Shown here: positions 14,693 to 56,835 of the stretch, piece by piece
How positions within the stretch are numbered: the stretch's first letter is position 1
How the letters are laid out: the number at the start of each line of letters is the position of its first letter
Assembly (NCBI GenBank): GCA_016188865.1
Contig: JACPGX010000001.1
Location: forward strand, 141,197 to 205,196
Length of the DNA: 64,000 nucleotides
Source of the DNA: Candidatus Nealsonbacteria bacterium
GTDB taxonomy: Bacteria > Patescibacteriota > Minisyncoccia > Minisyncoccales > MHMH01
Direction of reading: 5' to 3'
The notes under the pieces: generated by a model
The model's database searches: none
Told to the model about the DNA's origin: nothing
The model's input: the letters and a program-made list of their open reading frames with translations, nothing else
Program-made: the position numbers and the translations under genes

Positions 14693-14781
14693 TCTTGCCG
14701 AGGAAGAAAATACCAATCGAATATCAATTTTCGGTCTCTCAATGGAATACTTTGTCGCTAAAATCGCGATGCAGTTAGACG

Positions 14782-14806
14782 ATGTTAGACGTCCGACGTC
14801 TAACAT
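14782..14806. repeat. 25-bp perfect palindrome (REP-like hairpin), copy 1
   Basis: ATGTTAGACGTC-C-GACGTCTAACAT. It is preceded by a partial direct copy, GTTAGACG, at 14774-14781. Confidence 0.9.
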
Positions 14807-14809
14807 CTA

Positions 14810-15496
14810 TTATTCCAAGAGAAAATCCTTGGTGATTATTTTTTTTGGCTTAAGCTTTGCTGTGCTCGTTTTTATAAATTTATAATAACTATTATTATCA
14901 GAGAATTGATTGAGGATAATGTCTGGTTTTAAAAGTTCACCCCAGCGATTATTTTTGACTAAATCTTGACAGCTTGACCATGGATATTTTTCTTCTTTGT
15001 CTTTCCATGCTTCTAATGCTCTTGGATTACGATGGATATATGCTGAAAGATAGAGAAGTTGTTCATCTGTTTCTACTGGAATGGCCCGGAAAGCGCCCTG
15101 GAAAAGATGACCATGTTTTTTATATTTTGTGTTGAAATATTTTGCGTAGCCAGTTTGTATTCTTTGGAGATAATGTGAGATGCCATTACTGTTATCGGTT
15201 TTTTCTTGGACTAAAAGATGAAAATGATTTGGCATAACGGTAAATATATTCAATTCTACAATTCTTTTATCCGCAATTTGGCGTACAGTCTCCTCGGGTA
15301 TATTGAATTGCGAATACTTAAGAAAATATGAACTTTGACGGCCGATATTATAGAAAGATAACGGAGCTTGATACGCAAAAATAAAAAAGAGAAAACGGCT
15401 GTAATCTCTTTCGTCAATAAATATTGCTGATTCGTCGTTGCTGCGATTACAAATATGGTAATAGTTATTTTGCGCAAATTTAAATTTCCTTATCAT
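14810..15496 (-). CDS. IS200/IS605-family Y1 (HUH) transposase, RAYT-like
   Basis: YYHICNRSNDESAIFIDERDYSRFL, HUH motif in MPNHFHLLV, GHLFQGAFRA, and the Tyr region YIHRNP. The start is moved to the ATG at 15496 (MIRKFKF...). The tracked start at 15535 lies inside the palindrome. Confidence 0.8.
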   Translation of the reverse strand: MIRKFKFAQNNYYHICNRSNDESAIFIDERDYSRFLFFIFAYQAPLSFYNIGRQSSYFLKYSQFNIPEETVRQIADKRIVELNIFTVMPNHFHLLVQEKTDNSNGISHYLQRIQTGYAKYFNTKYKKHGHLFQGAFRAIPVETDEQLLYLSAYIHRNPRALEAWKDKEEKYPWSSCQDLVKNNRWGELLKPDIILNQFSDNNSYYKFIKTSTAKLKPKKIITKDFLLE

Positions 15497-15509
15497 GATT
15501 ATAATATAA

Positions 15510-15536
15510 CATGTTAGACGTCCGACGTCTAACATG
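15510..15536. repeat. 27-bp perfect palindrome (REP-like hairpin), copy 2
   Basis: CATGTTAGACGTC-C-GACGTCTAACATG. Its inner 25 bp are identical to 14782-14806. Confidence 0.9.
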
Positions 15537-15540
15537 TTCT

Positions 15541-34480: not shown

Positions 34481-35489
34481 ATATAGAACAAGTTTTACAC
34501 AAAGGATACCCTCTTTTTTGGGCTATTTTGCGTCTTTCTCTGACGACTGGATCAAACCAAATATCTTTTAATTTCTGCGATAAAACATTGCCGTAAAAAT
34601 ATCGACCGTTTAAGTCATAACAGCACATCGACACTGACCCGTCTGCCAAAACTACCAAATGTGACTTGGCCAAGGGACATTTATCGGGGGGATTTTTTAT
34701 TTTCAGTTTGCCATCTTCTTTTTTGTATCTTACGGACCTGTCGTTTTCTGACTTGTCAGGAAAAAACTTTCTAGATAATTCCTCTCTTTCTTTTTCGGAA
34801 TAAGCATACTCTCCCAGATTAAAAGATCTTATGGAGAGTCTGTCGACTTTTAAATCTTTTGCTATTTTTTTGACATCTTCCAACTCATTTTGATTTAATT
34901 TATTAAAAACAAACTGCAATTCAATAAACGGTCTTCTCAGCTTTAGGGCCTGCTTCTGTCGGCAGAAATAAGTAATATTGCCCAAAACCTGCTCGAAATT
35001 GGCTCCCACTCTAAATTGCTCATAAGATTCCTTGGAGGTTCCATCTAAATCAAGAATGATCCTGTCTAATTTTGAACGAAATAAATCATTCGTCATCTCC
35101 CTATTCAGCAAAACCGCATTAGTGCTTATTTCAGTATATAAGCCATTTTGGTGGGCATACCCTGCCATTCTAGAAATATCGGGGTTGAGCAAGGGCTCAT
35201 TGGTAAAATATAAAAGTACGACCTGTACCGAATCTTTGATGTTATCAATGACTTTTTTGAAATTATCGAAAGACATCAGTTCTCTTTTTCTGCAGATTTT
35301 ACCGGCTGGCGTAGGGCAGGTGGGGCATCGCAAATTACAATAATTCCCCACCTCAATCAGGGCAGCATAGGGATGCCCAAAAAGCCGATATTTAATATTG
35401 GCTTTTATAAAATGCCATGGCTTAGAAAAATTTCTTTCTAATATATTGATTAAAATATGCTTCTTAAAAGCCGGGTAAATGCGATTCAT
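34464..35489 (-). CDS. Radical SAM enzyme with Cys-rich C-terminal (SPASM-like) extension
   Basis: CxxxCxxC in VGNYCNLRCPTCPT. C-terminal cysteines occur in CPLAKSH...SMCCYD...PLCKTCSIY. Confidence 0.7.
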   Translation of the reverse strand: MNRIYPAFKKHILINILERNFSKPWHFIKANIKYRLFGHPYAALIEVGNYCNLRCPTCPTPAGKICRKRELMSFDNFKKVIDNIKDSVQVVLLYFTNEPLLNPDISRMAGYAHQNGLYTEISTNAVLLNREMTNDLFRSKLDRIILDLDGTSKESYEQFRVGANFEQVLGNITYFCRQKQALKLRRPFIELQFVFNKLNQNELEDVKKIAKDLKVDRLSIRSFNLGEYAYSEKEREELSRKFFPDKSENDRSVRYKKEDGKLKIKNPPDKCPLAKSHLVVLADGSVSMCCYDLNGRYFYGNVLSQKLKDIWFDPVVRERRKIAQKRGYPLCKTCSIYESKN

Positions 35490-36529
35490 TTAAATTCAAA
35501 GATTATTTTATCAATAAAATTGTTTAAATTATGGTTTTTGACAACTATTTCTCTTAGGGCGGGGTCTTCCGCGGCTCCCATTAAATTAAGCATCTTTTGA
35601 GCTAAATCTTTCTCATCTCCTTTTTTGAACATGTACTTTTGAGCCAAAATCTCTCGATATGCCTCATTGCAGGTAAGAACCAGGCAACCCGAAGACATGG
35701 CTTCTAAAACCACCTTATCCAGACTGCCGGTTGAGCTGGGATTAACGAAAAGGTCGGCCCAATTAAAGTATTCCGGCATTTCAGAAAAAGAAACTCCGCC
35801 GGCAAACTCAATATGGCTCTCCAAATTATAATTTTTAACCAAATTTTTCAAATCGGCTAAGTATTCTTCCTGAGATTTTAAAAGCGGCCGGCCGAGGATC
35901 CTCGCCTTTAAATTATTAATGTTCTTTTGATTGACTAAGATATTAACTGCCTCAATTAAAGTTTTGTGGTCTTTCACCGGCACAAGTCGGGCGGCGTACA
36001 GAATTTTGATTACGCGAGGTTTGACCTCCTCGGGGGGTCGAACCTCTTTAATTGGTTTAAAAAATTCCGTATCTATCGCCTGTCCGACTACTTCAATTTT
36101 TTTACTTTTTAACCGGCAGCCGGCAGAAGATGAGGTAACAATAACATTCACTAATTTTTCTGCTAATTTCAGCTTCCAGGGAAGAGCGCCGTGGGCATAC
36201 CATAAAACCAGTTTTTTGCCGAAAAGCTTAGCCAAAGGAAAAGCGGCTATAGCGAAAATAGAACCCATGTGGCAATAAACGCCGTCTGATTCCGGCAGGC
36301 ATTTAAATAGAATTTTCTGCATTCTAAAAAACTGCCTTATTTTGGAATAGCCCTTTTCTTTGCCCAAAGAAAAAACCTCAACGTTTTCCGGCAAATGATG
36401 CTCTCCAACCTGCAACCCTACAACAAAAACTTTTTCCAGTTTTTCTGAAAATTTTTCCAAAATCCTATGAAAAAAACTTAAGTTATCATCGTTAAAATCT
36501 ACTCTTTGAACGATAATTAAGAGTTTCAT
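35486..36529 (-). CDS. Glycosyltransferase, GT4-like
   Basis: GSLDKVVLEAMSSGCLVLT and ILYAARLVPVKD. It carries the 31-nt palindrome at 36016-36046 in its interdomain linker. Confidence 0.75.
   Translation of the reverse strand: MKLLIIVQRVDFNDDNLSFFHRILEKFSEKLEKVFVVGLQVGEHHLPENVEVFSLGKEKGYSKIRQFFRMQKILFKCLPESDGVYCHMGSIFAIAAFPLAKLFGKKLVLWYAHGALPWKLKLAEKLVNVIVTSSSAGCRLKSKKIEVVGQAIDTEFFKPIKEVRPPEEVKPRVIKILYAARLVPVKDHKTLIEAVNILVNQKNINNLKARILGRPLLKSQEEYLADLKNLVKNYNLESHIEFAGGVSFSEMPEYFNWADLFVNPSSTGSLDKVVLEAMSSGCLVLTCNEAYREILAQKYMFKKGDEKDLAQKMLNLMGAAEDPALREIVVKNHNLNNFIDKIIFEFK
36016..36046. repeat. 31-nt palindromic element (type B, degenerate copy) inside a GT4 gene
   Basis: GAGGTTTGACCTCC-TCG-GGGGGTCGAACCTC. 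Translated on the minus strand as EVRPPEEVKP. Confidence 0.75.
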
Positions 36530-36629: not shown

Positions 36630-37631
36630 TCAGCCCTGTGGATAATTTATCATTCTCAAATAATTATCTGTGTATTTTTCGTTGGAAAATTTGTTTTGAA
36701 CTAACTCGCGGCCGCGCCTGCCCATTTCAACGGCTATATTTTTATTCCTTAATAAAGTTCTTAATTTTTCAGCTAGTTGCTCGACATTACCAACTTCAAA
36801 TAAGAAACCGGTCTGGCCATCTTTGACCAAATCGGGTATACCCCCCACATTGCTGGCAATTACCGGTTTCCCTAAGGCCATGGCCTCTAATATAACTCTT
36901 GGCAAACCCTCCGATAAAGATGGAACAATCAAGCAATAACAATCCCTCATTCTTTCCCTAACTTCTATCAGAGACAATTTACCATCGGGCAAACCTTCGC
37001 CCGCTAAAACCAATTTAAAATCTAAAAATTCCTGCTTAATCTTATCAAATGCTTCCACCAAATATTTTACCCCCTTAACCGGATCATTCCTTCCCACCAA
37101 TAAAACAAAATTATTGAATTTTATATCGCTTTCAGTCAAAAAATCGTCTAAATCGGTAAAGGTCGGAAAAATAAAATATGGTTTGTCGGGAGCAATTTTC
37201 TCTGCCTTATCGATAAGATATTGTGCCACTCCCCTAATCTTATCTGCGTTGCGAAAACTAAACGGAGCTAAAAAGGCAATACTCTTTTTGACTTCCCAGT
37301 CGCCGTGCATTTCAATAATCAGCTCTTTACCTAATATCTTCTTCAAAATAACTCCGACAAAACCCTCCATTAATGGCGATTGAGCCACAATAACGTCAAT
37401 TCTTTTAAACAAACACAGCCAAAAAGACAAACAAAAAGCCGAGGGCCAGAAAAAAACATTTCTGGGCAAAAGATAAAATTCTGCACCCCAAAGCTTTTTG
37501 CCAAAAGTCATTTTCCCCCGAGCCAAAACATAGGACTTTATTCCTCTGGCCAGCCCTTCGAACTTTTTTCTCAAATGGACGTCCTTTTCTAAATCATATT
37601 TAGTTACGCTGATGAATAGAACGTTTTTCAT
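36630..37631 (-). CDS. Glycosyltransferase, GT4-like
   Basis: EGLPRVILEAMALGKPVIASNVGGIPDLV. Confidence 0.8.
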   Translation of the reverse strand: MKNVLFISVTKYDLEKDVHLRKKFEGLARGIKSYVLARGKMTFGKKLWGAEFYLLPRNVFFWPSAFCLSFWLCLFKRIDVIVAQSPLMEGFVGVILKKILGKELIIEMHGDWEVKKSIAFLAPFSFRNADKIRGVAQYLIDKAEKIAPDKPYFIFPTFTDLDDFLTESDIKFNNFVLLVGRNDPVKGVKYLVEAFDKIKQEFLDFKLVLAGEGLPDGKLSLIEVRERMRDCYCLIVPSLSEGLPRVILEAMALGKPVIASNVGGIPDLVKDGQTGFLFEVGNVEQLAEKLRTLLRNKNIAVEMGRRGRELVQNKFSNEKYTDNYLRMINYPQG

Positions 37632-37647
37632 GGTTTTATGATATCCG

Positions 37648-37702
37648 ACTTAGGACTTAGGAACTTAGTTTCTAAGTAAACTTAGAAACTAAGTTCCTAA
37701 GT
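37648..37702. repeat. 48-bp perfect palindrome (22-bp arms, 4-nt loop) preceded by an extra ACTTAGG unit
   Basis: ACTTAGGAACTTAGTTTCTAAG-TAAA-CTTAGAAACTAAGTTCCTAAGT at 37655-37702, with an extra ACTTAGG at 37648-37654. It covers the stop codon of 37697-38689. Confidence 0.9.
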
Positions 37703-38689
37703 TCGTTTTAATATCCGTAACGTTTTCTCCACTAAATTATCCCAGCTAAAATCTTTTAATTTCTCTCTAGAATTGCGGATAAATTTTTCCTGCAAACTCT
37801 TGTCGCTCCACAACTTCAAAATAGCTTGCTTTATCTGTTCTTTATTCTTGTATTCTACCAAAAAACCATTAAAATTATCTTCAATTAATTCCGGATTGCC
37901 CCCTTCACTGCTGGCTATCACCGGCACTCCAAAACTCATTGCTTCCAATATGACATGAGACAGACCCTCATAGCCTGAATTTAAAACAAACATATCGGCA
38001 GCCTTAAAGTAAAAAGGCATTTCTTCATGGGGAACTTTTTTATCCTCTCCGACAATTACTAATTTGAAATTTGGATTTTCTTTAAGCAAGTCTGGCATAA
38101 TGGCCCTTAAGTCGTCGAAGCCCTTCCATGGCACAGGACGTCCAACTGATAAAATAATATTTCCGTCAATGCCAATATTTTTTTTGGCATCCTCCTTAGA
38201 AATATCCGGTCGAGAACCGTTCTCGACCGCATTATAAATAACCTCTATTTTGTTCTCCGATACGCGCCAAGAAGCCACCATTTTTTTAACATACCTGCTG
38301 GGAACAATAATTTTATCAGCTCCTCTGGCAACATAAGCCTGAATACTTTTTAAATAATTCTTCTTCTGCTCCCAGGCTGCATCCCCGACAACCTTTAAAA
38401 CAAATTTTTTTCTTAATAATTTTGCCGCCCAGAAAGCCGGCAATCCTGCGCTAGTCGGATTTTGAGCATAAATAACATCAGCCTCTTTTGCCAGCCGAAG
38501 CAAACCCAAGAAATATAAAAAATGCTTTAAACCTTTAGGGTATTTTTTCAATCTTCCTGAATAACTAATAACTGGCTGATTCAATTCTTTGGCCAGCCTT
38601 TTAACATATGTCGCTGGCCCGCCAATGTCAGGCGGATATATGCCGGTGGCTAAGACAATTTTCATATATTTTAAATACCTCTTGGGCAA
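37697..38689 (-). CDS. Glycosyltransferase, GT4-like
   Basis: MKIVLATGIYPPDIGGPATYV and EGLSHVILEAMSFGVPVIASSEGGNPELI. The likely true start is the ATG at 38665. Confidence 0.8.
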   Translation of the reverse strand: MPKRYLKYMKIVLATGIYPPDIGGPATYVKRLAKELNQPVISYSGRLKKYPKGLKHFLYFLGLLRLAKEADVIYAQNPTSAGLPAFWAAKLLRKKFVLKVVGDAAWEQKKNYLKSIQAYVARGADKIIVPSRYVKKMVASWRVSENKIEVIYNAVENGSRPDISKEDAKKNIGIDGNIILSVGRPVPWKGFDDLRAIMPDLLKENPNFKLVIVGEDKKVPHEEMPFYFKAADMFVLNSGYEGLSHVILEAMSFGVPVIASSEGGNPELIEDNFNGFLVEYKNKEQIKQAILKLWSDKSLQEKFIRNSREKLKDFSWDNLVEKTLRILKRT

Positions 38690-39740
38690 TATTCTGCCAA
38701 TCGTATCTCGTTAATCCTGCAATAGCAAAATTAACGAGGCGCTCTCTTAATTCTGGATTATTATAAATTCTTAATATGGCTTTGGCAATCTCCTCTGGAT
38801 TTCCCGGCGTCACCAAAAGACCATTTTTCTCATTTTCGATAATATCTAAAATTCCGCCAACCTTGCTTGCAATAACCGGGACCCTAGCTGCTATGGCTTC
38901 CAAGATAGCTATGCCGAAGCCCTCTTTCAGGGAAGGCAAAACGAAACAGTCCGCCATAGCCAGATATTCTGGAATGCCTTCTGGAGGAATCGGTCCCAAA
39001 AATTTTACTTTCTTCACTAAGCCGAGCTCTCTGGTCAAATTTTCTAAATTTTTTCTTTCAGAACCATCGCCGATAATGAATAATTGGAGATCCGACCCCG
39101 CCAAGGCGAGATCGGATCTTGTAAAAGCCCTAATCAAATATTCTATCCCCTTTACTTTTTCCAACCTCGCCACCGTCATCACCACAAAACCATCTTTTTG
39201 TTGTTTCTTTAAATTCTCAAATCTTTTTAAATCAACGCCGTTAGGTATTACCTCAATATTTGAGCATCCGATTTCTTTAAAATATTCTTTGATGGCGGAA
39301 CTTGCAGCAATGCAGACTTTAGCGTTTCTATAAACTATTTTTTTTAAGAAATTATTCCCCTCCAACCTCTGAACGGTCACAATGTAGGGTATGTTGACAA
39401 TTTTTGAAATATAATATCCTATGCAGGCCCCCAGAAATCCTTGGCAGTGTAAAAGATTAATTTTCTGTAATAATATTAGAAAAAAAGAGCGCGAAAATAT
39501 GAATGGCATAGCTGTCAAAATGTGAAAGAACGAAGAATAGGAAAGGTCTTTCAGGGCAAATAAAGATGTCCGAAAAATTTTAACTCCATTTTTAACTTCG
39601 TGTTTGGCGCTATCCCCAACCCTAGCTGTAACAACAAAAATTTCGGCTTTATTCGCAAGCTTTTCGGCAATATTTTGCGTCCAGGTCTCTAATCCTCCGA
39701 TCACGGGATAATAATGTAAAACCGGCATTAAAATTCGCAT
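38628..39740 (-). CDS. Glycosyltransferase, GT4-like
   Basis: MRILMPVLHYYPVIGGLETW and EGFGIAILEAIAARVPVIASKVGGILDII. Confidence 0.8.
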   Translation of the reverse strand: MRILMPVLHYYPVIGGLETWTQNIAEKLANKAEIFVVTARVGDSAKHEVKNGVKIFRTSLFALKDLSYSSFFHILTAMPFIFSRSFFLILLQKINLLHCQGFLGACIGYYISKIVNIPYIVTVQRLEGNNFLKKIVYRNAKVCIAASSAIKEYFKEIGCSNIEVIPNGVDLKRFENLKKQQKDGFVVMTVARLEKVKGIEYLIRAFTRSDLALAGSDLQLFIIGDGSERKNLENLTRELGLVKKVKFLGPIPPEGIPEYLAMADCFVLPSLKEGFGIAILEAIAARVPVIASKVGGILDIIENEKNGLLVTPGNPEEIAKAILRIYNNPELRERLVNFAIAGLTRYDWQNIAQEVFKIYENCLSHRHISA

Positions 39741-40828
39741 AGTACATTTTTTATTGATTCCAACATCGTTCTAATATCTTTTTCCGCGTAGTAATTCTGC
39801 AAGGGGAAATTGATGATTCTCTTGGCGACTTCAAAGGTGTTGGGGAATTCTTCCCGGCTTAAAACAATAGGCGTGTGCCAAATGCGGGTGCAGAAAACTC
39901 GGTACCTTCTCAATCCCGCCACAATTTCATCTCTTTTATTTTCCAAATTTTTGGGGACTAAAGCGGAAAGATAACAAAAAACGTTGTTTTCGTGCTCTTG
40001 AACTTCAAAACCTAAATTTTGAAGCTCTTGCTGAAAAAACTTAGCAAGCTTTATCCTGTTTTGCATAGATTTTTCAAAATCTTCCAGAGAATAATAGAAA
40101 AGGGCCAAAGATAACTTATTGAGGCCTGCGGGCTCCGGTAATTTTTCCTTTCTTAGCATCTTCGGAGCGATATCGTTGCCAAACTTTTTAAAAATAAAGG
40201 CGAAAAAAGGAAGGCAATTCAGTAAAGAAATGAAATCCCTGAAATTAAAATTGGTTTTTGGCAGAGAGATTTGCCAATCCTTGGGACAAACTAACAATCC
40301 GCCTCTTAATGCCGGGAATTGCTTGTAAAGACTGAAAAATGCAATATCACTTTTCGGCTTAACCCCGAAAGCATGAGCGCAATCTTCAATAATCGCAATA
40401 TCGGAGGTCCGACCTCCCGACAAATATGACGGGAGGTCGGACCTCAATCCATCAACATCGAACGGGAGACCGTAGGTGTGGCACACTAAAATCGCCTTTG
40501 TCCGGGGAGTAATCTTCCTAAAGATTTCTTCTCTTTTAATATGAAAAGTTTTCAAATCAATATCCAAAAAAATCGGTTTTATATTATATTTCTCTAAAAT
40601 TGGCTGGAATATATCGCAAATATAAGCCGGCATCATTATTTCTGAATTTTGAAGATTCAACTTTCCAATAATAATTTTGAAAGCAGACCGGCCCATGTCG
40701 GTGAAAATAAGCTGTTTACTCGGAAAATATGACTCAAGTTTTTGAGCTAAATTAATCTTCTTGAAATTATTAAGTTTTATTTGCGGGTGGACGAAAAACA
40801 TACTAGTCTTACTCTGGCTAGGCACCAT
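39728..40828 (-). CDS. Divergent DegT-family PLP-dependent aminotransferase carrying an in-frame palindromic element
   Basis: HTYGLPFDVDG, IIEDCAHAFG and FFSLYKQFPALRGG (Lys retained). The residues LRSDLPSYLSGGRTSD are encoded by the repeat at 40403-40445. Confidence 0.65.
   Translation of the reverse strand: MVPSQSKTSMFFVHPQIKLNNFKKINLAQKLESYFPSKQLIFTDMGRSAFKIIIGKLNLQNSEIMMPAYICDIFQPILEKYNIKPIFLDIDLKTFHIKREEIFRKITPRTKAILVCHTYGLPFDVDGLRSDLPSYLSGGRTSDIAIIEDCAHAFGVKPKSDIAFFSLYKQFPALRGGLLVCPKDWQISLPKTNFNFRDFISLLNCLPFFAFIFKKFGNDIAPKMLRKEKLPEPAGLNKLSLALFYYSLEDFEKSMQNRIKLAKFFQQELQNLGFEVQEHENNVFCYLSALVPKNLENKRDEIVAGLRRYRVFCTRIWHTPIVLSREEFPNTFEVAKRIINFPLQNYYAEKDIRTMLESIKNVLCEF
40403..40445. repeat. 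42/43-nt nested double-hairpin element (type A), copy 1, inside a DegT-family gene
   Basis: GGAGGTCCGACCTCC-CGACAAATATGAC-GGGAGGTCGGACCTC. Its reverse complement matches 46914-46955 at 40 of 42 positions. Confidence 0.9.
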
Positions 40829-41475
40829 CCAAACGGCCTGCCAAAAATATTTTCAAATGATAAAAAAAATTTAGGAGATAAATTCAAATTTAATGGAGGA
40901 TAAGTATTAAAAATCTTCTGTTTCCTGAAAACGAAGCCTTCTTTTTTAAACTCTCGTTTGATGCCGGAGAGTGAAAGATAGTAAGGGGAGTTTCTGTTGA
41001 TAAGCCTTTTCAGGCTGCCAAAAATCTTATAAAAAGACAGGCAATTTATAAAGTCGCAGATTAAAGTGCCCCCTGGCTTTAAAACTCTGACAATCCCTCT
41101 TTGAACTCCCGGATAGGTAGCGGCCGAAACGTAGCCGAAGCTGGTCACAACATCAAAATAATTATCTGGATATTTAAGATTATAAACATCTCCCTCTTCT
41201 ATATTAATTCTGTTTTCGAGGCCGGCTTTTCTAACTTTTTCCCTGGCGGTCTCAATCGCTTTTTTTGAAATATCAAACCCGATTATTGCAAAATCAGTGT
41301 TCTTGGCCAAAAGAATATCAATTTCGCCTAAGCCGCAGCCGATATCCAGCAGTCTGCCGCTTTTTTTCTCGCCCAAAAGCGCCAAAGTATTTTCTAAGGT
41401 TAAGGTAATTGTAGCCTGCCGCGCTGAATTTAATCTGTAATTTTTTTGACTATATTGCTCCCACTTTTCGCTCAT
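40777..41475 (-). CDS. Class I SAM-dependent methyltransferase
   Basis: Motif I in RLLDIGCGLGEIDILLA; LKPGGTLI lies downstream. Confidence 0.75.
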   Translation of the reverse strand: MSEKWEQYSQKNYRLNSARQATITLTLENTLALLGEKKSGRLLDIGCGLGEIDILLAKNTDFAIIGFDISKKAIETAREKVRKAGLENRINIEEGDVYNLKYPDNYFDVVTSFGYVSAATYPGVQRGIVRVLKPGGTLICDFINCLSFYKIFGSLKRLINRNSPYYLSLSGIKREFKKEGFVFRKQKIFNTYPPLNLNLSPKFFLSFENIFGRPFGWCLARVRLVCFSSTRK

Positions 41476-42458
41476 AATTTATATTTTAATAAATACGGGC
41501 TTAATTTTTTAATTAAAAATGGCGGTAAAAGGCCGAAAATATTTCTGAGGGTTTCGAAGTCCAGCTTCCCTGGAAGGCCGGACTTCATCGTTCCTCCGCA
41601 ATTCGTTAATTCAAAAATCGGATATTCCCTGCCTCCCCAGCCCTGTTTGAAAATTTGCAAAGGAGAACCAATTCTTGTCCCTCCAAAATCGAAAATTTTA
41701 TTATCCTGCAAACTCTTTTGAATTTGTTCCCATAGTATTAAATAATTGGCTCCCAAATTTTTATACTTTTCATCGATGGCATTTTGAAAATAATGGACGA
41801 ATTTTTCATAAAAGAGAAAGGCGCTTCCGGCTATAACAAGGTTATTCTTTTTGGCTAAAATAATCTCCGATTCATTGGAGTTAAAAAAATAATCAAAAAA
41901 AGAAAATGGATATGCCGGAATTTTGTGTCTTTTAGCGCTTTTAAGATATAAATTATAAAAATTTTTAAGGTCTTTCTGGCTTTGACATTTCTCAACTTGA
42001 ATATTATTGGCCTTGGCTTTTTCTATTTCGTGGCGCGTAGTTTTCCTTAAATCAATATCCTCCAAAAAATAACTTACCCTGCCCGACTGGTCGAGAACGC
42101 TTCTCGCCCCATCGAGAGCGAGAAACGTTCTCGCTAGTTGGGGGTGGAAGTTGATTCTGACGCGATTCTTGAATTCAGACAATAAATCCTGCTTAAATTT
42201 TTCGGCATCAATATTTTCCAGCAAAGGCAATGGCCCGCCGTATTCGCAAAATGGATGAGAAATCAATTTATCCCCCACTCTGGCCATGCTTAATAATGCC
42301 TTATCATCGTACATATACCTTTCAAATTTCAACCATTTAAATTGCCTTTCAAGGAATTCCTCCCATTCCATATAATGAAAAAAAGTCTTGAATAAGACTT
42401 TTCCCAACAAATCCTGCCATTCATTTTTGTTTGTAATTTTGGTAAATTTGTTCTCCAT
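41472..42458 (-). CDS. FemAB/GNAT-like acyl- or aminoacyl-transferase family protein
   Basis: The HPFCEYGGPL, LYLKSAKRHKIPAYPFSFF and AGSAFLFYEKFVHYFQNA pattern resembles FemAB-type (Acetyltransf_6-like) proteins. It contains two in-frame palindromes. Confidence 0.45.
   Translation of the reverse strand: MENKFTKITNKNEWQDLLGKVLFKTFFHYMEWEEFLERQFKWLKFERYMYDDKALLSMARVGDKLISHPFCEYGGPLPLLENIDAEKFKQDLLSEFKNRVRINFHPQLARTFLALDGARSVLDQSGRVSYFLEDIDLRKTTRHEIEKAKANNIQVEKCQSQKDLKNFYNLYLKSAKRHKIPAYPFSFFDYFFNSNESEIILAKKNNLVIAGSAFLFYEKFVHYFQNAIDEKYKNLGANYLILWEQIQKSLQDNKIFDFGGTRIGSPLQIFKQGWGGREYPIFELTNCGGTMKSGLPGKLDFETLRNIFGLLPPFLIKKLSPYLLKYKL
41557..41585. repeat. 29-nt imperfect palindrome (type C) inside the FemAB-like gene
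   Basis: AAGTCCAGCTTCCCTGGAAGGCCGGACTT. Translated on the minus strand as KSGLPGKLDF. Confidence 0.55.
42092..42133. repeat. 42-nt nested palindrome (16-nt arms, 10-nt spacer) inside the FemAB-like gene
   Basis: CGAGAACGCTTCTCGC-CCCATCGAGA-GCGAGAAACGTTCTCG, with one arm mismatch. Each arm is itself a CGAGAA..TTCTCG hairpin. Translated as ARTFLALDGARSVL. Confidence 0.8.
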
Positions 42459-46570: not shown

Positions 46571-47713
46571 ATGGAAACTGTCAATACCGCAAAACGCAAA
46601 ATACTCTTTCTGGTCACCCAATCTGAAATGGGCGGCGCGCAGAGGTATATTTATGAAGTATCAAAAATACTGTCAGAAAGACACGAGATTTTGGTTGCGG
46701 CCGGAGAGGGAGATGGAGAGTTCTTCCAGAAACTAAAAAATACACCGGTTGAACCGGTGTATCTGAAACATCTGCAAAGAACTCCTGAACCGCATTCAAT
46801 TATCATGGCTATCGTTGAAATAATAAAACTTCTCAAGGCAGAAAGGCCGGATGTTTTGTTTTTGTGTTCTACTACTGCTGGGCTACTCGGCTCCATTGCC
46901 GCCCGAATTTACAGAGGTCCGACCTCTCGTCAGATTTGTCGGGAGGTCGGACCTCGCGTAATCTATCGTATTGGCGGCTGGGCCTTCAACGACCCTCGCC
47001 CATTCTGGAAAAATTGGCTTATCCTGCTGGCGGAGAAATTAACCGCCCGATTTAAAGATATAATCGTAGTGAACTCCGAATATGACCTGCGGATTGCGTT
47101 AGAAAAACGAATCGTTTCTCCGGAAAAAATAGTGAAAATCTATAATGGGCTTGATCGAAATTCTTTGAATTTCTTGCCCAAAGACGAAGCCCGTGGTCTG
47201 TTGACATCCGATGTCAACAGACGAATGATTGGGTGCGTGGCGAATTTTTATAAGACTAAAGGGCTAAAGTGCCTTATTGACGCTTTCGATTTTCTGATGT
47301 CCGGCTTCCCGAAGAAGTCGGACATCAAGCTATTCGTCATCGGCGATGGGAAACTGCGGTCGGAACTTGAAGCTCAAATAAAAAAACTCGACTTAGAAGA
47401 CAGGGTGATTTTAGCCGGCAGAATGCCCGACGCCTATAAATATCTAAAGGCATTTGATGTCTTCGTGCTTCCCTCTCTTAAGGAGGGTTTTCCATGGGTC
47501 ATACTGGAAGCTGCGGTAGCTGACGTTCCGATTGTCGCCACAAAAGTAGGAGCCATACCAGAAATATTGCCGGAAGAATTTTTAGTAAAACCAGGCGATG
47601 CCCAAGCTTTGGCAAAAAAAATTGGCTGGATGCTTGAACATCCAGCCGTACCAAAACTCAAGCAGAACTTCTCTCTGCAAAAAATGGCAGAGGAAACCGA
47701 GAGGCTACTCTAA
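46571..47713 (+). CDS. Glycosyltransferase, GT4-like (only plus-strand gene) carrying in-frame palindromic elements
   Basis: SEMGGAQRYIYEV and EGFPWVILEAAVADVPIVATKVGAIPEIL. RGPTSRQICREVGPRV is encoded by the repeat at 46913-46955. Confidence 0.8.
   Translation: METVNTAKRKILFLVTQSEMGGAQRYIYEVSKILSERHEILVAAGEGDGEFFQKLKNTPVEPVYLKHLQRTPEPHSIIMAIVEIIKLLKAERPDVLFLCSTTAGLLGSIAARIYRGPTSRQICREVGPRVIYRIGGWAFNDPRPFWKNWLILLAEKLTARFKDIIVVNSEYDLRIALEKRIVSPEKIVKIYNGLDRNSLNFLPKDEARGLLTSDVNRRMIGCVANFYKTKGLKCLIDAFDFLMSGFPKKSDIKLFVIGDGKLRSELEAQIKKLDLEDRVILAGRMPDAYKYLKAFDVFVLPSLKEGFPWVILEAAVADVPIVATKVGAIPEILPEEFLVKPGDAQALAKKIGWMLEHPAVPKLKQNFSLQKMAEETERLL
46913..46955. repeat. 42/43-nt nested double-hairpin element (type A), copy 2, inside a GT4 gene
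   Basis: AGAGGTCCGACCTCT-CGTCAGATTTGTC-GGGAGGTCGGACCTC. Confidence 0.9.
47297..47325. repeat. 29-nt imperfect palindrome (type C) inside the plus-strand GT4 gene
   Basis: ATGTCCGGCTTC-CCGAA-GAAGTCGGACAT. Translated as MSGFPKKSDI. Contains GTCGGAC. Confidence 0.55.
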
Positions 47714-49414: not shown

Positions 49415-50452
49415 TTAAAAACGCGATTCAAGCCAATTGGCAAAAGATTCGAATGCACTGAAAAGACTGGCTTGGGCTGCGGAAATTTGCTGCTGCAAAA
49501 GCTGAATTAATTGCGCAAGCAAATTAATGATTTTTTGCTGGAGTTCTTGAATTAAAGCCCGGAGTTCTTCTGGAGAAAGAGGACCACCGGTGCCGGTGGG
49601 AGCGGGTTCTTCTTCCTTTATTTGTTGAGGTTCGACCTCCTCGGGAGGTCGAACCTCTTCGATTTCGGGCAGTGGCAGAGTTTTAACGTCCGGGAAAACC
49701 GTTAAAGCAGAAACTAAATTTTGCCCTCGGTCGTTAAAAGCTTTTATCTGCCTTCCAGAATATTCCGTATCAGGCCTTAAGCCTGTTTCGTCAAGATAAG
49801 AAATGTTTGCTCCGCCCGAAGCTACCGTATTCAGATTCTCATCTAAAATTTTAAAGCCGAACTCATTATTGGATAAATCCGTAAAATGCCACCTGATTGT
49901 TGAAGTGGATATTGCCTCGCCTGACTTTGCCAAGGGAGAAACAGGAGCAGAAGGAGTGTCGCTTCCTGCCAGAATCATTCTTTCAAGGCCAATAATTTTT
50001 TTGTCAGTGGGACCCTTAAGACTGACGTCAGGAAAAACTGCTGAATTTATTTGTATTTCCGGTTTAATTGTTTTTCCAGTATAGGTAGTAGAAGCGATGT
50101 CTACGGTAATAAAAATCCTTTGCTTTGTAAAAGTTCCATTGAGAGTTGTGTCAAAAAAAGGAGAAAATGATTTCCTCAATTTTTCAGATTCATCGCCGTC
50201 CCAACCCGGCGAAACGCCGTCTTCATAAATTGAAAGCTGGGAAATATCATATTGCTGAACAGTTCCGGTGTTATCAATTTTTATTGAAGTTAAACCGGCG
50301 CCGGGAAGAGTCAAATCTAAAATCAAGAGGTTAGTAGTGCCAGCCGGCACAGCGTAAGTTGACTGCGGGTTGACTATAAAATCATTGGCTGTTGAAGCAA
50401 AAGAAAAACCAGGCGCTAAAACAAAAACTAAAACTAAAATAATTTTCCTCAT
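49415..50452 (-). CDS. Secreted protein with FN3-like domain and C-terminal coiled coil
   Basis: Signal peptide MRKIILVLVFVLAPGFSFAS. STIRWHFTDLSNNEFGFKILDENLN...TEYSGRQIKAFNDRG is FN3-like. The C-terminus is LRALIQELQQKIINLLAQLIQLLQQQI. Confidence 0.6.
   Translation of the reverse strand: MRKIILVLVFVLAPGFSFASTANDFIVNPQSTYAVPAGTTNLLILDLTLPGAGLTSIKIDNTGTVQQYDISQLSIYEDGVSPGWDGDESEKLRKSFSPFFDTTLNGTFTKQRIFITVDIASTTYTGKTIKPEIQINSAVFPDVSLKGPTDKKIIGLERMILAGSDTPSAPVSPLAKSGEAISTSTIRWHFTDLSNNEFGFKILDENLNTVASGGANISYLDETGLRPDTEYSGRQIKAFNDRGQNLVSALTVFPDVKTLPLPEIEEVRPPEEVEPQQIKEEEPAPTGTGGPLSPEELRALIQELQQKIINLLAQLIQLLQQQISAAQASLFSAFESFANWLESRF
49584..49599. repeat. 16-nt palindrome inside the 345-aa secreted protein gene
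   Basis: CCACCGG-TG-CCGGTGG, translated as PTGTGG. It lies 27 nt from the type B element. Confidence 0.6.
49627..49657. repeat. 31-nt perfect palindromic element (type B) inside the 345-aa secreted protein gene
   Basis: GAGGTTCGACCTCC-TCG-GGAGGTCGAACCTC (14-bp arms). Translated as EVRPPEEVEP. Confidence 0.85.
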
Positions 50453-56280: not shown

Positions 56281-56835
56281 TTAATGTGTCCCATTTTTAA
56301 CATAATATACTCCCCTGCCGGCGCCATTCCTTACCATTATGCCGGTTTGACAAAGCTTATCTAAATCTCGGAGAACGGTTCTCCGATTAATTTCTGGGAA
56401 AAGCCCAACCACATCGCCTATTCTAAATCGGCCGTTTCCGTTAATGTATGCAATAATTTTCTCCTGTCGCCCCGCCTTTGCCAAGGCTTCGGTAGGCAGA
56501 TAGTTATCCACAGTTTTTCCAGAGTCGTGTTGCCCAACATCCGATGTTTGACATAGCTGACTCAACTTATTATATTCTCTCCTTAGGACCTCAAAATTCC
56601 TCGAATCCACCCAATTATTCTGCTTGGCTAAATCAAAAAGCCCAAAAATCTCTGTAATCTTACGAGAACACATCTCGTCCTGACGAGAAATGTTCTCGTA
56701 AGATTCCACCATTATTCTATCAGCTAATTCTCTTATTTTAGAAGCCAAATCCTCTCCAACGGGAAAAAGAGCGGTCACTTTATAGACCGCTAAAGTCAAT
56801 TTTAGAAGATGTTCTTTGTCCAGATTTTGCCGCAT
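56281..56835 (-). CDS. Putative transcriptional regulator: N-terminal four-helix-bundle domain plus C-terminal winged HTH
   Basis: HLLKLTLAVYKVTALFP...IRELADRI is four-helix-bundle-like. INRRTVLRDLDKLCQTGIMVRNGAGRGVYY is a DeoR-like wHTH. Confidence 0.5.
   Translation of the reverse strand: MRQNLDKEHLLKLTLAVYKVTALFPVGEDLASKIRELADRIMVESYENISRQDEMCSRKITEIFGLFDLAKQNNWVDSRNFEVLRREYNKLSQLCQTSDVGQHDSGKTVDNYLPTEALAKAGRQEKIIAYINGNGRFRIGDVVGLFPEINRRTVLRDLDKLCQTGIMVRNGAGRGVYYVKNGTH

What the first reader, a model, noticed from the sequence alone, without database searches (positions are those of the whole stretch)
46913..46955. The same element occurs in a GT4 glycosyltransferase gene but is read in a different frame
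AGAGGTCCGACCTCTCGTCAGATTTGTCGGGAGGTCGGACCTC is translated here as RGPTSRQICREVGP. In the aminotransferase gene the near-identical DNA, in the same orientation relative to the coding strand, gives RSDLPSYLSGGRTS. In the first gene the first G of GAGGTCC is codon position 3; here it is codon position 2. Identical DNA with different peptides argues that the nucleotide element, not the protein segment, is the conserved unit. Other GT4s in the window show a short turn where this gene has about 14 extra residues between AARIY and RVIYRIGGW (compare ISKIVNIPYIVTV in 38628-39740). The core length of 42 nt equals 14 codons.
Basis: seen in the sequence. Interest (0 to 1): 0.8.

Follow-up and report, generated by a model that had tools for sequence, protein, structure and literature searches.

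The report
In-frame palindromic repeat inside genes
A 42-base hairpin-forming repeat of a family that also flanks tyrosine-transposase genes sits in frame inside two unrelated sugar-pathway genes of a Nealsonbacteria (candidate phyla radiation) genome, where it most likely adds a floppy surface loop; this kind of element is known elsewhere, but we found no report of it in these bacteria.

Summary
GAGGTCCGACCTC-N16-GAGGTCGGACCTC lies at 46914-46955 in a GT4 glycosyltransferase gene (first G at codon position 2, peptide RGPTSRQICREVGP). It also lies at 40404-40445 in a DegT aminotransferase gene (codon position 3, RSDLPSYLSGGRTS). The two copies differ at 2 bases.

It is a doublet of a 13-nt self-complementary unit, GAGGT-YCG-ACCTC, that folds into one long hairpin. 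Two 31-nt relatives sit in other genes of the window.

The same doublet, with variable spacers, occurs in at least 111 places in GTDB genomes. Most are Patescibacteria or Omnitrophota. It has no match in viral contigs. About 68% of copies lie inside long open frames, in all three codon phases. The core has no stop codon in any of the six frames.

RAYT-like HUH/Y1 transposase genes in these lineages are flanked by doublets of this architecture. One is flanked by this exact family.

Orthologues of both host genes show none, single, 31-nt and 42-nt states at the same loop, so this is not a clean 14-codon indel.

Best reading: a REP/REPIN-like element tolerated in frame in a disordered loop. It is a new member of a known kind (intragenic REPs, Rickettsia RPEs). 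Interest is moderate.

The parts
46914..46955 (+). 42-nt doublet in the GT4 gene. Left unit GAGGTCCGACCTC (46914-46926), 16-nt spacer TCGTCAGATTTGTCGG, right unit GAGGTCGGACCTC (46943-46955). Read as RGPTSRQICREVGP.
   Evidence: arms of 19 nt, 89% complementary, 4 nt between them; the surrounding 72-nt segment folds at -37.7 kcal/mol.
46571..47713 (+). Host gene, a GT4-family glycosyltransferase of 380 aa. The element encodes residues about 115-129, between helix 101-115 and strand 129-133.
   Evidence: Pfam Glyco_trans_1_4, Glycos_transf_1, Glyco_transf_4; 100% identical to a Candidatus Nealsonbacteria protein; AlphaFold2 model; pLDDT below 50 at residues 120-124.
40404..40445 (-). Second 42-nt copy, in the DegT/DnrJ/EryC1 aminotransferase gene (39728..40828, minus strand). 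The coding strand reads GAGGTCCGACCTCCCGTCATATTTGTCGGGAGGTCGGACCTC, translated as RSDLPSYLSGGRTS.
49627..49657 (-). 31-nt doublet of the same family, GAGGTTCGACCTC-CCGAG-GAGGTCGAACCTC on the coding strand. It lies in ORF 49415..50452 and reads EVRPPEEVEP.
36016..36046 (-). 31-nt doublet of the same family, slightly decayed, in the glycosyltransferase ORF 35486..36529. It reads EVRPPEEVKP.
47197..47221 (+). Single perfect palindrome TCTGTTGACAT-CCG-ATGTCAACAGA in a second loop of the same GT4 gene (LLTSDVNR). Orthologues carry other hairpins at this site.
14810..15496 (-). RAYT-like HUH/Y1 transposase gene of 228 aa, with HUH motif PNHFHLLV and tyrosine motif YIHRNP.
   Evidence: PF01797, 39.7 bits against a cut-off of 23; NF047646 REP-associated tyrosine transposase, 45 bits, below the cut-off of 80; profile hits to ISDra2 TnpA and E. 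coli TnpA-REP.
15508..15538 (.). Palindrome AACATGTTAGACGTC-G-GACGTCTAACATGTT just upstream of the transposase gene. Its core GACGTCGGACGTC differs from GAGGTCGGACCTC by one compensated pair.
   Evidence: (inverted repeat I17, 100% complementary).
14781..14807 (.). Matching palindrome GATGTTAGACGTCGGACGTCTAACATC just downstream of the transposase stop codon.
42092..42133 (-). 42-nt doublet of a second family, CGAGAACGTTTCTCG-N12-CGAGAAGCGTTCTCG, in the FemAB-like ORF 41472..42458. It reads ARTFLALDGARSVL.
56653..56708 (-). 56-nt palindrome containing CGAGAACATTTCTCG and CGAGATGTGTTCTCG, the same second family, in ORF 56281..56835.

Best explanation
The 42-mer is one copy of a REP/REPIN-like miniature palindromic element. 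Its unit is a 13-nt self-complementary sequence, GAGGT-YCG-ACCTC, which can form a 5-bp stem with a 3-nt loop. Two units in inverted orientation, separated by a short variable spacer, form a doublet. The doublet can fold either as one long hairpin or as two small ones.

The family is spread through Patescibacteria and Omnitrophota. Doublets of this architecture flank the genes of a large family of RAYT-like HUH/Y1 (IS200-type) transposases in these lineages.

Inferred mechanism, by analogy with IS200/IS605 TnpA and E. coli TnpA-REP: the transposase recognises the hairpins on single-stranded DNA, for example at replication forks, then cuts and rejoins next to them, and this copies or moves doublets.

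These genomes have very little intergenic space, and the core has no stop codon in any of six frames. Copies that land in frame in tolerant surface loops therefore survive and are translated. In GT4 the result is a 14-residue disordered loop between a helix and a strand of the N-terminal domain.

Once in place, an element is inherited and evolves in situ through spacer turnover, compensatory arm changes and decay to single units. That would explain why orthologues show several states at the same loop.

Shown here: the anatomy, the copy identity across frames, the distribution, the flanking of transposase genes, the indel series in orthologues and the loop location. Inferred: that the transposase mobilises the element, and that the element is translated.
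For: 1. Near-identical 42-mers lie in two unrelated genes in different codon phases. Two 31-nt relatives lie in two further genes.

Of the first 80 loci, 57 are labelled CPR/Patescibacteria and 9 Omnitrophota. There are 0 matches in 2.9 million viral contigs.

3. In 114 copies the arms covary (T..A 66, C..G 47, one exception). The cores are open in 6 of 6 frames.

4. 77 of 114 copies lie in stop-free frames of at least 150 codons, against 84% for random positions, and all three phases are used. The nine hosts checked include LigA, UvrA, AcrB and ThrRS.

5. A Y1 transposase gene in the window is flanked on both sides by ATGTTAGACGTCGGACGTCTAACAT.

6. In L062 a homologous transposase gene has GGGGTCGAACCTCGA about 15 nt upstream of its start codon. 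It has ATCGAGGTTCGACCTCG-TTGCAA-CGAGGTCGAACCTCGAT starting 1 nt after its stop codon.

7. Five further homologues were chosen by protein similarity alone. All carry nested palindromes within about 50 nt of the gene: perfect doublets beside four, and two imperfect copies of one 11-mer beside the fifth, L197. The cores are AAGGTCSGACCTT, GAGATCCGATCTC, CAGGGTTSAACCCTG, GGGTCRGACCC and CAGGGTSSCACCCTG.

8. The GACGTCGGACGTC variant occupies the GT4 loop in orthologue L159, at the position where others have GAGGTCCGACCTC.

9. Orthologue series: GT4 shows none, single, 42-nt and longer doublets. The aminotransferase shows none, 31-nt and 42-nt states at one site, with compensatory spacer changes between WIN and L192.

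10. The AlphaFold2 model puts the insert in a low-confidence loop.

11. There is precedent. REPINs are two inverted REPs plus a spacer (PMC3116915, PMC3337134). Intragenic REP dimers encoding 20-30 aa, often in repair genes such as uvrA and the DNA ligase gene, and in-frame Rickettsia RPEs, are described in PMC3733652.
Against: The transposase in this window is flanked by the GACGTC variant, not the GAGGTC variant. No GAGGTC-flanked transposase was seen in the 64 kb, and the rest of the genome could not be searched.

The transposase scores below NCBIfam's curated cut-off for REP-associated tyrosine transposase, 45 against 80 bits. It has only weak profile similarity to solved TnpA structures.

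No transposition event, target duplication or empty-site/filled-site pair between near-identical strains was observed. The three independent assemblies all carry the element.

Spacers differ greatly between genomes while the 13-nt arms stay constant. That is unusual for a simple copy-and-paste element.

Repeated occupation of the same loops in orthologues (GT4, aminotransferase, LigA) can also be read as in-situ evolution rather than insertion.

At the FemAB-like site the doublet looks like an inverted duplication of native coding sequence.

The classical REP tag GTAG is absent.
Confidence: 0.68

Rival explanations
1. Palindromes arise in situ. Hairpins in tolerant loops form and grow locally by template switching or fold-back synthesis during replication (quasi-palindrome correction, inverted duplication), with no transposition. 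Similar sequences in different genes would then reflect gene conversion or a mutational bias towards certain stems.
For: The same loops carry many unrelated palindromes and heptamer tandem repeats in different orthologues. In the FemAB-like gene the window's doublet looks like an inverted copy of the native GARSVL-coding sequence that orthologue L192 has as a single unit. Compensatory arm changes are frequent. No target-site duplication is seen.
Against: This does not explain why the same 13-mer pair recurs in at least 111 places across many phylum-level lineages and in unrelated genes of one genome with near-identical spacers. It also does not explain why doublets of this architecture, in one case of this exact family, sit directly beside Y1 transposase genes.
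Confidence: 0.14
2. The hairpin is a host-selected cis element rather than selfish DNA. It might be a protein-binding or uptake signal on DNA, or an mRNA hairpin that slows translation or directs RNA processing.
For: The 13-nt arms are conserved across distant lineages while spacers vary. Arm complementarity is maintained in 113 of 114 copies. Flanks show a weak symmetric bias, T-rich upstream and A-rich downstream. Many copies sit in cell-envelope and DNA-repair genes.
Against: There is no Rfam match. The flank bias is the reverse of the A-tract-upstream, T-tract-downstream arrangement expected of a two-way terminator. Host genes are functionally unrelated. Many orthologues lack the element, so no gene-specific function is conserved. 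Association with transposase genes is the simpler explanation.
Confidence: 0.1
3. The conserved unit is a peptide module shared by the proteins, or the element is an assembly or sequencing artefact.
For: None beyond the initial resemblance.
Against: The two copies are read in different frames and give unrelated peptides. All three phases are used elsewhere. Independent assemblies and diverged orthologues carry the element.
Confidence: 0.01

Closest known systems
REP / REPIN elements with RAYT (REP-associated tyrosine transposase). Sources: Bertels and Rainey 2011, PMC3116915 and PMC3337134; Di Nocera et al. 2013, PMC3733652.
   Same: Short palindromic units are paired in inverted orientation with a short spacer to form a hairpin doublet. 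Several families coexist in one genome. HUH/Y1 transposase genes are flanked by the cognate repeats. Single units occur alongside doublets. Intragenic dimers, including some in uvrA and DNA ligase genes, are already reported.
   Different: Each unit here is only 13 nt and is itself self-complementary, so a doublet is both a direct and an inverted repeat. Whole doublets span 29-56 nt. There is no GTAG tag. About two thirds of copies are intragenic rather than extragenic. The hosts are Patescibacteria and Omnitrophota. The same core is shared across many phylum-level lineages, whereas known REPIN populations are lineage-specific. The transposase is about 216-228 aa and falls below NCBIfam's RAYT cut-off.
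Rickettsia palindromic elements (RPE). RPE-4 and RPE-6 are classed as CGTC-tagged REPs in PMC3733652.
   Same: Palindromic repeats are inserted in frame in functional protein-coding genes of a small, gene-dense genome. They are read in different frames and tolerated as extra surface segments.
   Different: RPE-1 is described in PMC3733652 as a longer palindromic insertion and is confined to Rickettsia. No sequence relationship was tested. PMC3733652 found no transposase association for CGTC repeats, whereas here Y1 transposase genes are flanked by the repeats.
TIRYT / 'TIRtron' elements with double-palindromic terminal repeats (PMC3733652).
   Same: A tyrosine transposase gene is flanked by self-complementary inverted repeats that also occur as dispersed, closely spaced copies.
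   Different: Those were described in Stenotrophomonas, Acidobacteria and others, with longer repeats, and are not reported as predominantly intragenic. Membership could not be tested because no reference sequences were available here.
IS200/IS605 family and their miniature derivatives (PATEs).
   Same: HUH/Y1 chemistry, and recognition of subterminal hairpins on single-stranded DNA.
   Different: The transposase gene here appears to be a single gene flanked by symmetric hairpins, not a multi-copy IS. The dispersed copies carry no IS ends beyond the hairpins. No tnpB partner gene was noted beside it.

Membership tests
REPIN (REP doublet) | Two REP units in inverted orientation, separated by a short spacer, able to form one hairpin. 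| tested here: met
   The arms are 13-19 nt, the spacers 3-30 nt, and the arms covary in 113 of 114 copies.
REPIN (REP doublet) | Many near-identical copies within one genome. | tested here: inconclusive
   Only 64 kb of the genome was available. It holds two 42-nt copies (2 mismatches between them) and two 31-nt copies. The Omnitrophota chromosome CP070780.1 has at least 5 copies in a truncated scan.
REPIN (REP doublet) | A cognate RAYT gene flanked by the same REP. | tested here: inconclusive
   Met for the family in L062: GGTCGAACCTC upstream and a full doublet 1 nt after the stop codon. Five further homologues are flanked by nested palindromes of the same architecture, perfect doublets in four. 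In this window the transposase is flanked by the GACGTCGGACGTC variant, not GAGGTC.
REP (repetitive extragenic palindrome) | Extragenic location. | tested here: not met
   All four copies in the window are inside ORFs. 77 of 114 copies elsewhere lie in stop-free frames of at least 150 codons, including LigA, UvrA, AcrB and ThrRS genes.
REP (repetitive extragenic palindrome) | A conserved terminal tetranucleotide tag (GTAG or CGTC). | tested here: inconclusive
   There is no GTAG. Units end in CCTC, or in CGTC in the transposase-flanking variant. PMC3733652 lists CCTC as a variant of the CGTC tag. However, the stem and loop dimensions described there (8-9 bp stems, 4-5 nt loops, a CCA tail) do not obviously fit.
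RAYT / HUH Y1 transposase | An HUH motif and a catalytic tyrosine in a Y-x-x-x-NP-like context; match to the Y1_Tnp domain. | tested here: met
   PNHFHLLV and YIHRNP are present. PF01797 scores 39.7 bits, above its cut-off of 23. These positions are invariant in 20 homologues. The profile matches ISDra2 TnpA and E. coli TnpA-REP 4er8.
RAYT / HUH Y1 transposase | Passes the curated RAYT model (NCBIfam NF047646). | tested here: not met
   45.2 bits against a cut-off of 80. It is a distant relative, not an equivalog.
Rickettsia palindromic elements | In-frame insertion into functional genes, read in different frames. | tested here: met
Rickettsia palindromic elements | Sequence family and the longer size of RPEs; Rickettsia host. 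| tested here: not met
   The elements are 29-56 nt and the hosts are Patescibacteria and Omnitrophota. Sequence similarity to RPEs was not tested.
MITE | Terminal inverted repeats of an IS plus a target-site duplication; 70-300 bp. | tested here: not met
   The element is too short, and no duplication is visible at either 42-nt copy.
Known structured RNA, intron or intein | A match to a curated RNA family, or self-splicing protein or RNA features. | tested here: not met
   Rfam gives 0 matches on the whole window. A 14-residue insert is far too short for an intein.

The most novel reading that the evidence does not exclude
Ultra-small, gene-dense bacteria (Patescibacteria, Omnitrophota) may host a RAYT-REPIN-type system that has shifted to a mainly intragenic niche. 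Its 13-nt core would be stop-free in all six frames because that allows 'stealth' in-frame insertion. The same core would be shared across phylum-level lineages. The hairpins would act as a standing source of loop-length variation in surface-polysaccharide, repair and housekeeping enzymes, with recurrent hot spots in GT4, DegT and LigA.
Probability: 0.25. Interest if true: 0.7.

Novelty: new member of a known kind. Interest (0 to 1): 0.5.

Why it matters
REPIN-RAYT systems have mostly been studied in Proteobacteria, as strictly extragenic and lineage-specific repeat populations. Here a related system appears to be common in the candidate phyla radiation and Omnitrophota, and it lives mostly inside genes.

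This has three consequences.
- It gives a simple DNA-level explanation for many short lineage-specific 'insertions' in CPR proteins, which can otherwise be mistaken for functional protein features.
- It warns annotators and structure modellers that such loops are repeat-derived.
- It offers a tractable pairing, hairpin core and flanking transposase, for testing how RAYT-type enzymes choose and copy their substrates.

It does not change what is known about the kind of element.

Tried and rejected
- **Peptide module.** Rejected: the copies are read in different frames.
- **Assembly artefact.** Rejected: three independent assemblies and diverged orthologues carry the element.
- **Known RNA family.** Rfam at gathering threshold gave no match on the whole window.
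- **Intrinsic terminator.** Rejected: the copies are inside ORFs, and the flank bias is the reverse of the A-tract-upstream, T-tract-downstream arrangement expected of a two-way terminator.
- **Clean 14-codon insertion.** Not supported: orthologues show a graded series of states.
- **Simple deletion between the two direct 13-mers to give the single form.** This would remove 29 nt and shift the frame, whereas the observed difference is 30 nt. So it is not a one-step relation.
- **Phage carriage.** 0 matches in viral contigs.
- **phmmer of the transposase against PDB.** No match. Only a profile search gave weak matches.
- **Literature.** Four full-text searches found no paper linking REP/REPIN/RAYT to CPR. 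That library is incomplete, so prior description cannot be excluded.
- **Third palindromic loop (TSDFN...KSEV).** Suspected from peptides in the protein alignment, but not found by a strict pattern in the fetched loci. A looser scan did confirm related hairpins at that loop.
Full report
**1. Observation**

It lies in a 380-aa ORF, 46571..47713 on the plus strand. That ORF carries the GT4-type glycosyltransferase domains and is 100% identical to a Candidatus Nealsonbacteria protein.

The 42-mer GAGGTCCGACCTC-TCGTCAGATTTGTCGG-GAGGTCGGACCTC starts at codon position 2 and reads RGPTSRQICREVGP. A second 42-mer at 40404-40445 lies in a DegT/DnrJ/EryC1 aminotransferase ORF, 39728..40828 on the minus strand. 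On that coding strand it differs at only 2 bases, both in the spacer. It starts at codon position 3 and reads RSDLPSYLSGGRTS.

The arms are self-complementary, so orientation is defined only by the spacer: 2 mismatches in the reported orientation against 5 in the other. The 13-mer with up to 2 mismatches gives 19 matches in the window against 0.39 expected. The identical gene with the 42-mer was assembled independently from three sequencing runs.

**2. Anatomy**

The unit is a 13-nt self-complementary sequence, GAGGT-YCG-ACCTC. Two units in inverted orientation flank a short spacer. Because each unit is itself a palindrome, the pair is also a near-direct repeat. The whole can fold as one long hairpin: the arms are 19 nt, and the surrounding 72-nt segment folds at -37.7 kcal/mol. 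It can also fold as two mini-hairpins.

Two 31-nt relatives, GAGGTTCGACCTC-CCGAG-GAGGTCGAACCTC, lie inside two further ORFs at 36016-36046 and 49627-49657.

A second family with the same architecture, CGAGAA-NNN-TTCTCG twice, lies in ORFs at 42092-42133 (again 42 nt) and at 56653-56708.

A generic scan for such nested doublets finds 7 in the window against 0-1 in shuffled sequence.

**3. Distribution**

Of the first 80 loci, 57 are labelled as Patescibacteria/CPR lineages: Nealson-, Jorgensen-, Moran-, Curtiss-, Zambryski-, Yanofsky-, Giovannoni-, Falkow-, Uhr- and Saccharibacteria, among others. Nine are labelled Omnitrophota. The same pattern has no match in 2.9 million viral contigs.

Among 114 copies:
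- spacers range from 3 to 30 nt, are very diverse, and often extend the stem;
- the variable arm position covaries (T..A 66, C..G 47, one exception);
- 77 copies (68%) lie in stop-free frames of at least 150 codons, against 84% for random positions;
- all three codon phases are used, 27/30/20.

The 13-nt cores have no stop codon in any of six frames, and the two 42-mers are open in five of six. Nine host ORFs were scanned. Among them are NAD-dependent DNA ligase (two lineages), UvrA, an AcrB-family transporter, threonyl-tRNA synthetase and O-antigen ligases.

**4. Orthologue comparisons**

The GT4 loop between S-I-A-x-x-x-Y and (V/I)IYRIGGW varies greatly in length.
- The shortest orthologues have 12 residues there.
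- Several carry a single palindrome: TACAGAGGTCCGACCTCTGTA (YRGPTSV), TGATCGAGGTCCGACCTCAATCA, or TGATCGACGTCGGACGTCAATCA.
- Some carry doublets with other spacers. L114 has CCTCATTAAGGGG, and L131/L133 have a 69-nt spacer; the 123-nt segment around that doublet folds at -55.5 kcal/mol.
- L118 has a different nested doublet, GGAGGCTTAGCCTC...GAGGCTAAGCCTCC.
- Many others have A-rich heptamer repeats.

The window's insert is therefore 10 codons longer than the single-palindrome state and 12 longer than the shortest state. It is not a clean 14-codon indel.

A second loop of the same gene is also a hairpin hot spot. The window itself has the perfect palindrome TCTGTTGACAT-CCG-ATGTCAACAGA at 47197-47221.

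The aminotransferase shows the same kind of series at one site:
- no element, with the canonical FDIEKIKRRGLLIIED (L194);
- a 31-nt doublet (L193);
- the 42-nt doublet in the window and in L192, whose spacers differ by compensatory changes.

In LigA, two lineages carry doublets with different spacers and frames at the same loop, after TIEAIPL.

**5. Link to a transposase**

ORF 14810..15496 (minus strand, 228 aa) has an HUH motif (PNHFHLLV) and a tyrosine motif (YIHRNP). It matches Pfam Y1_Tnp above threshold. It matches NCBIfam 'REP-associated tyrosine transposase' below threshold, 45 against 80 bits.

The gene is flanked on both sides by ATGTTAGACGTCGGACGTCTAACAT. The core of that palindrome differs from GAGGTCGGACCTC by one compensated pair. 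The same GACGTCGGACGTC core occupies the GT4 loop in orthologue L159.

A local tblastn search found homologues in L022 and L062. In L062 the gene has GGGGTCGAACCTCGA about 15 nt upstream of its start codon. A full doublet of the finding's family, ATCGAGGTTCGACCTCG-TTGCAA-CGAGGTCGAACCTCGAT, starts 1 nt after its stop codon.

The L062 protein has thousands of homologues of about 216 aa. I fetched five, chosen by protein similarity alone. All carry nested palindromes directly beside the gene: perfect doublets in four, and two imperfect copies of one 11-mer in the fifth.

| Locus | Flanking repeat |
|---|---|
| L195 | GTCAAGATCGGATCTCGA-CTCA-TCGAGATCCGATCTTGAC |
| L196 | ATGTCAGGGTTGAACCCTGA-TTGA-TCAGGGTTCAACCCTGACAT |
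| L197 | GGGTCGGACCC...GGGTCAGACCC (imperfect pair) |
| L198 | ACTCAGGGTCCCACCCTGA...AGGGTGGGACCCTGAGT |
| L199 | ATTAAGGTCCGACCTTA-CAT-TAAGGTCGGACCTTAAT |

A profile of the family weakly matches ISDra2 TnpA and E. coli TnpA-REP (4er8). The 4er8 alignment spans both catalytic motifs.

**6. Effect on the protein**

An AlphaFold2 model of GT4 has mean pLDDT 88.8. It places the insert between helix 101-115 and strand 129-133, and pLDDT falls below 50 at residues 120-124. This fits a tolerated, disordered surface loop.

**7. Mechanism**

The best-supported reading is a REP/REPIN-like element family cognate to RAYT-like Y1 transposases.

Shown: the doublet architecture, multiple copies in unrelated genes and frames, arm covariation, repeats of this architecture flanking transposase genes, indel series in orthologues, and location in a loop.

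Inferred from established IS200/IS605 and TnpA-REP biology: the enzyme recognises the hairpins on single-stranded DNA and cuts and rejoins beside them. In genomes with almost no intergenic space, only in-frame, stop-free copies in tolerant loops persist, and these are then translated.

Still open:
- why spacers turn over so fast while the arms stay fixed;
- whether shared hot spots reflect targeting or ancient insertions followed by in-situ change;
- the FemAB-like site, which looks like a local inverted duplication.

For these reasons I keep in-situ palindrome genesis as the main rival.

**8. Comparison with what is known**

REPINs are defined as two inverted REPs plus a spacer, mobilised by RAYTs (PMC3116915, PMC3337134). 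PMC3733652 reports intragenic REPs, often dimers encoding 20-30 aa and often in repair genes such as uvrA and DNA ligase. The same paper describes the in-frame Rickettsia RPEs and tyrosine transposases with double-palindromic terminal repeats.

The present family works like these. It differs in five ways:
- the units are 13 nt and fully self-complementary;
- there is no GTAG tag;
- most copies are intragenic;
- the hosts are Patescibacteria and Omnitrophota;
- one core is shared across many lineages.

Four full-text searches found no paper linking REP, REPIN or RAYT to these phyla. The library is incomplete, so an earlier description cannot be excluded.

**9. Verdict**

The element is a new member of a known kind, and interest is moderate (0.5).

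Noticed in passing
window 14781-15538: A RAYT-like HUH/Y1 transposase gene (14810-15496, minus strand) is bracketed by two copies of the palindrome ATGTTAGACGTCGGACGTCTAACAT, a REPtron-like arrangement.
   Followed up: yes
window 42092-42133 and 56653-56708: A second nested-palindrome family (CGAGAA-NNN-TTCTCG, twice) lies inside a FemAB-like ORF and a DeoR-HTH ORF. At the FemAB-like site, orthologue L192 has only the right-hand unit, so the window's doublet looks like an inverted duplication of native coding sequence.
   Followed up: partly
window 37655-37702: A perfect 48-nt palindrome (ACTTAGGAACTTAGTTTCTAAGT, 2 nt, then its reverse complement) lies between ORFs 36630..37631 and 37697..38689. 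It contains a third nested-doublet core, CTTAGTTTCTAAG.
   Followed up: no
window 47197-47221; L114, L115, L122, L123, L144 at the equivalent site: A second loop of the same GT4 gene (after EARxLL) is also a hairpin hot spot. The window has a perfect 11-bp stem with a CCG loop. Orthologues carry unrelated hairpins of up to 23 bp, including a CGAGAAC-type hairpin in L144.
   Followed up: partly
L113, L121, L122, L126, L139, L146 and others (the GT4 loop equivalent to window 46913-46955): Many orthologues have A-rich heptamer tandem repeats, (ATACAAA)n or (AAACTAA)n, in place of a palindrome. These give 21-nt-periodic peptides such as YKIQNTKYKIQ. A unit length that is not a multiple of three, kept in frame, is curious.
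   Followed up: no
L018, L029, L044, L065, L084, L095: A 46-49-nt doublet variant recurs in several Patescibacteria genomes, apparently between genes. Its spacer is conserved (about CCGAAATTAACGTAATGTTAG), and its ATGTTAG resembles the outer arm of the window's transposase-flanking palindrome.
   Followed up: no
115 doublets in the window and L001-L111: The flanks show a weak symmetric bias: A at -8/-7 and T at -6 to -2 upstream, mirrored downstream. This may be a target preference or an outer part of the element.
   Followed up: partly
L009 1193-3247 and L019 2300-4351: NAD-dependent DNA ligase genes of a Jorgensenbacteria and a Nealsonbacteria genome carry doublets at the same loop of the adenylation domain, after TIEAIPL. 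They differ in spacer and frame.
   Followed up: partly
L195, L196, L062, L199, upstream of the transposase start codons: The hairpin nearest the transposase start codon ends in (T/C)(T/C)GACAT. The TTGACAT form in L195 and L199 looks like a -35 box, so the repeat may overlap the transposase promoter.
   Followed up: no
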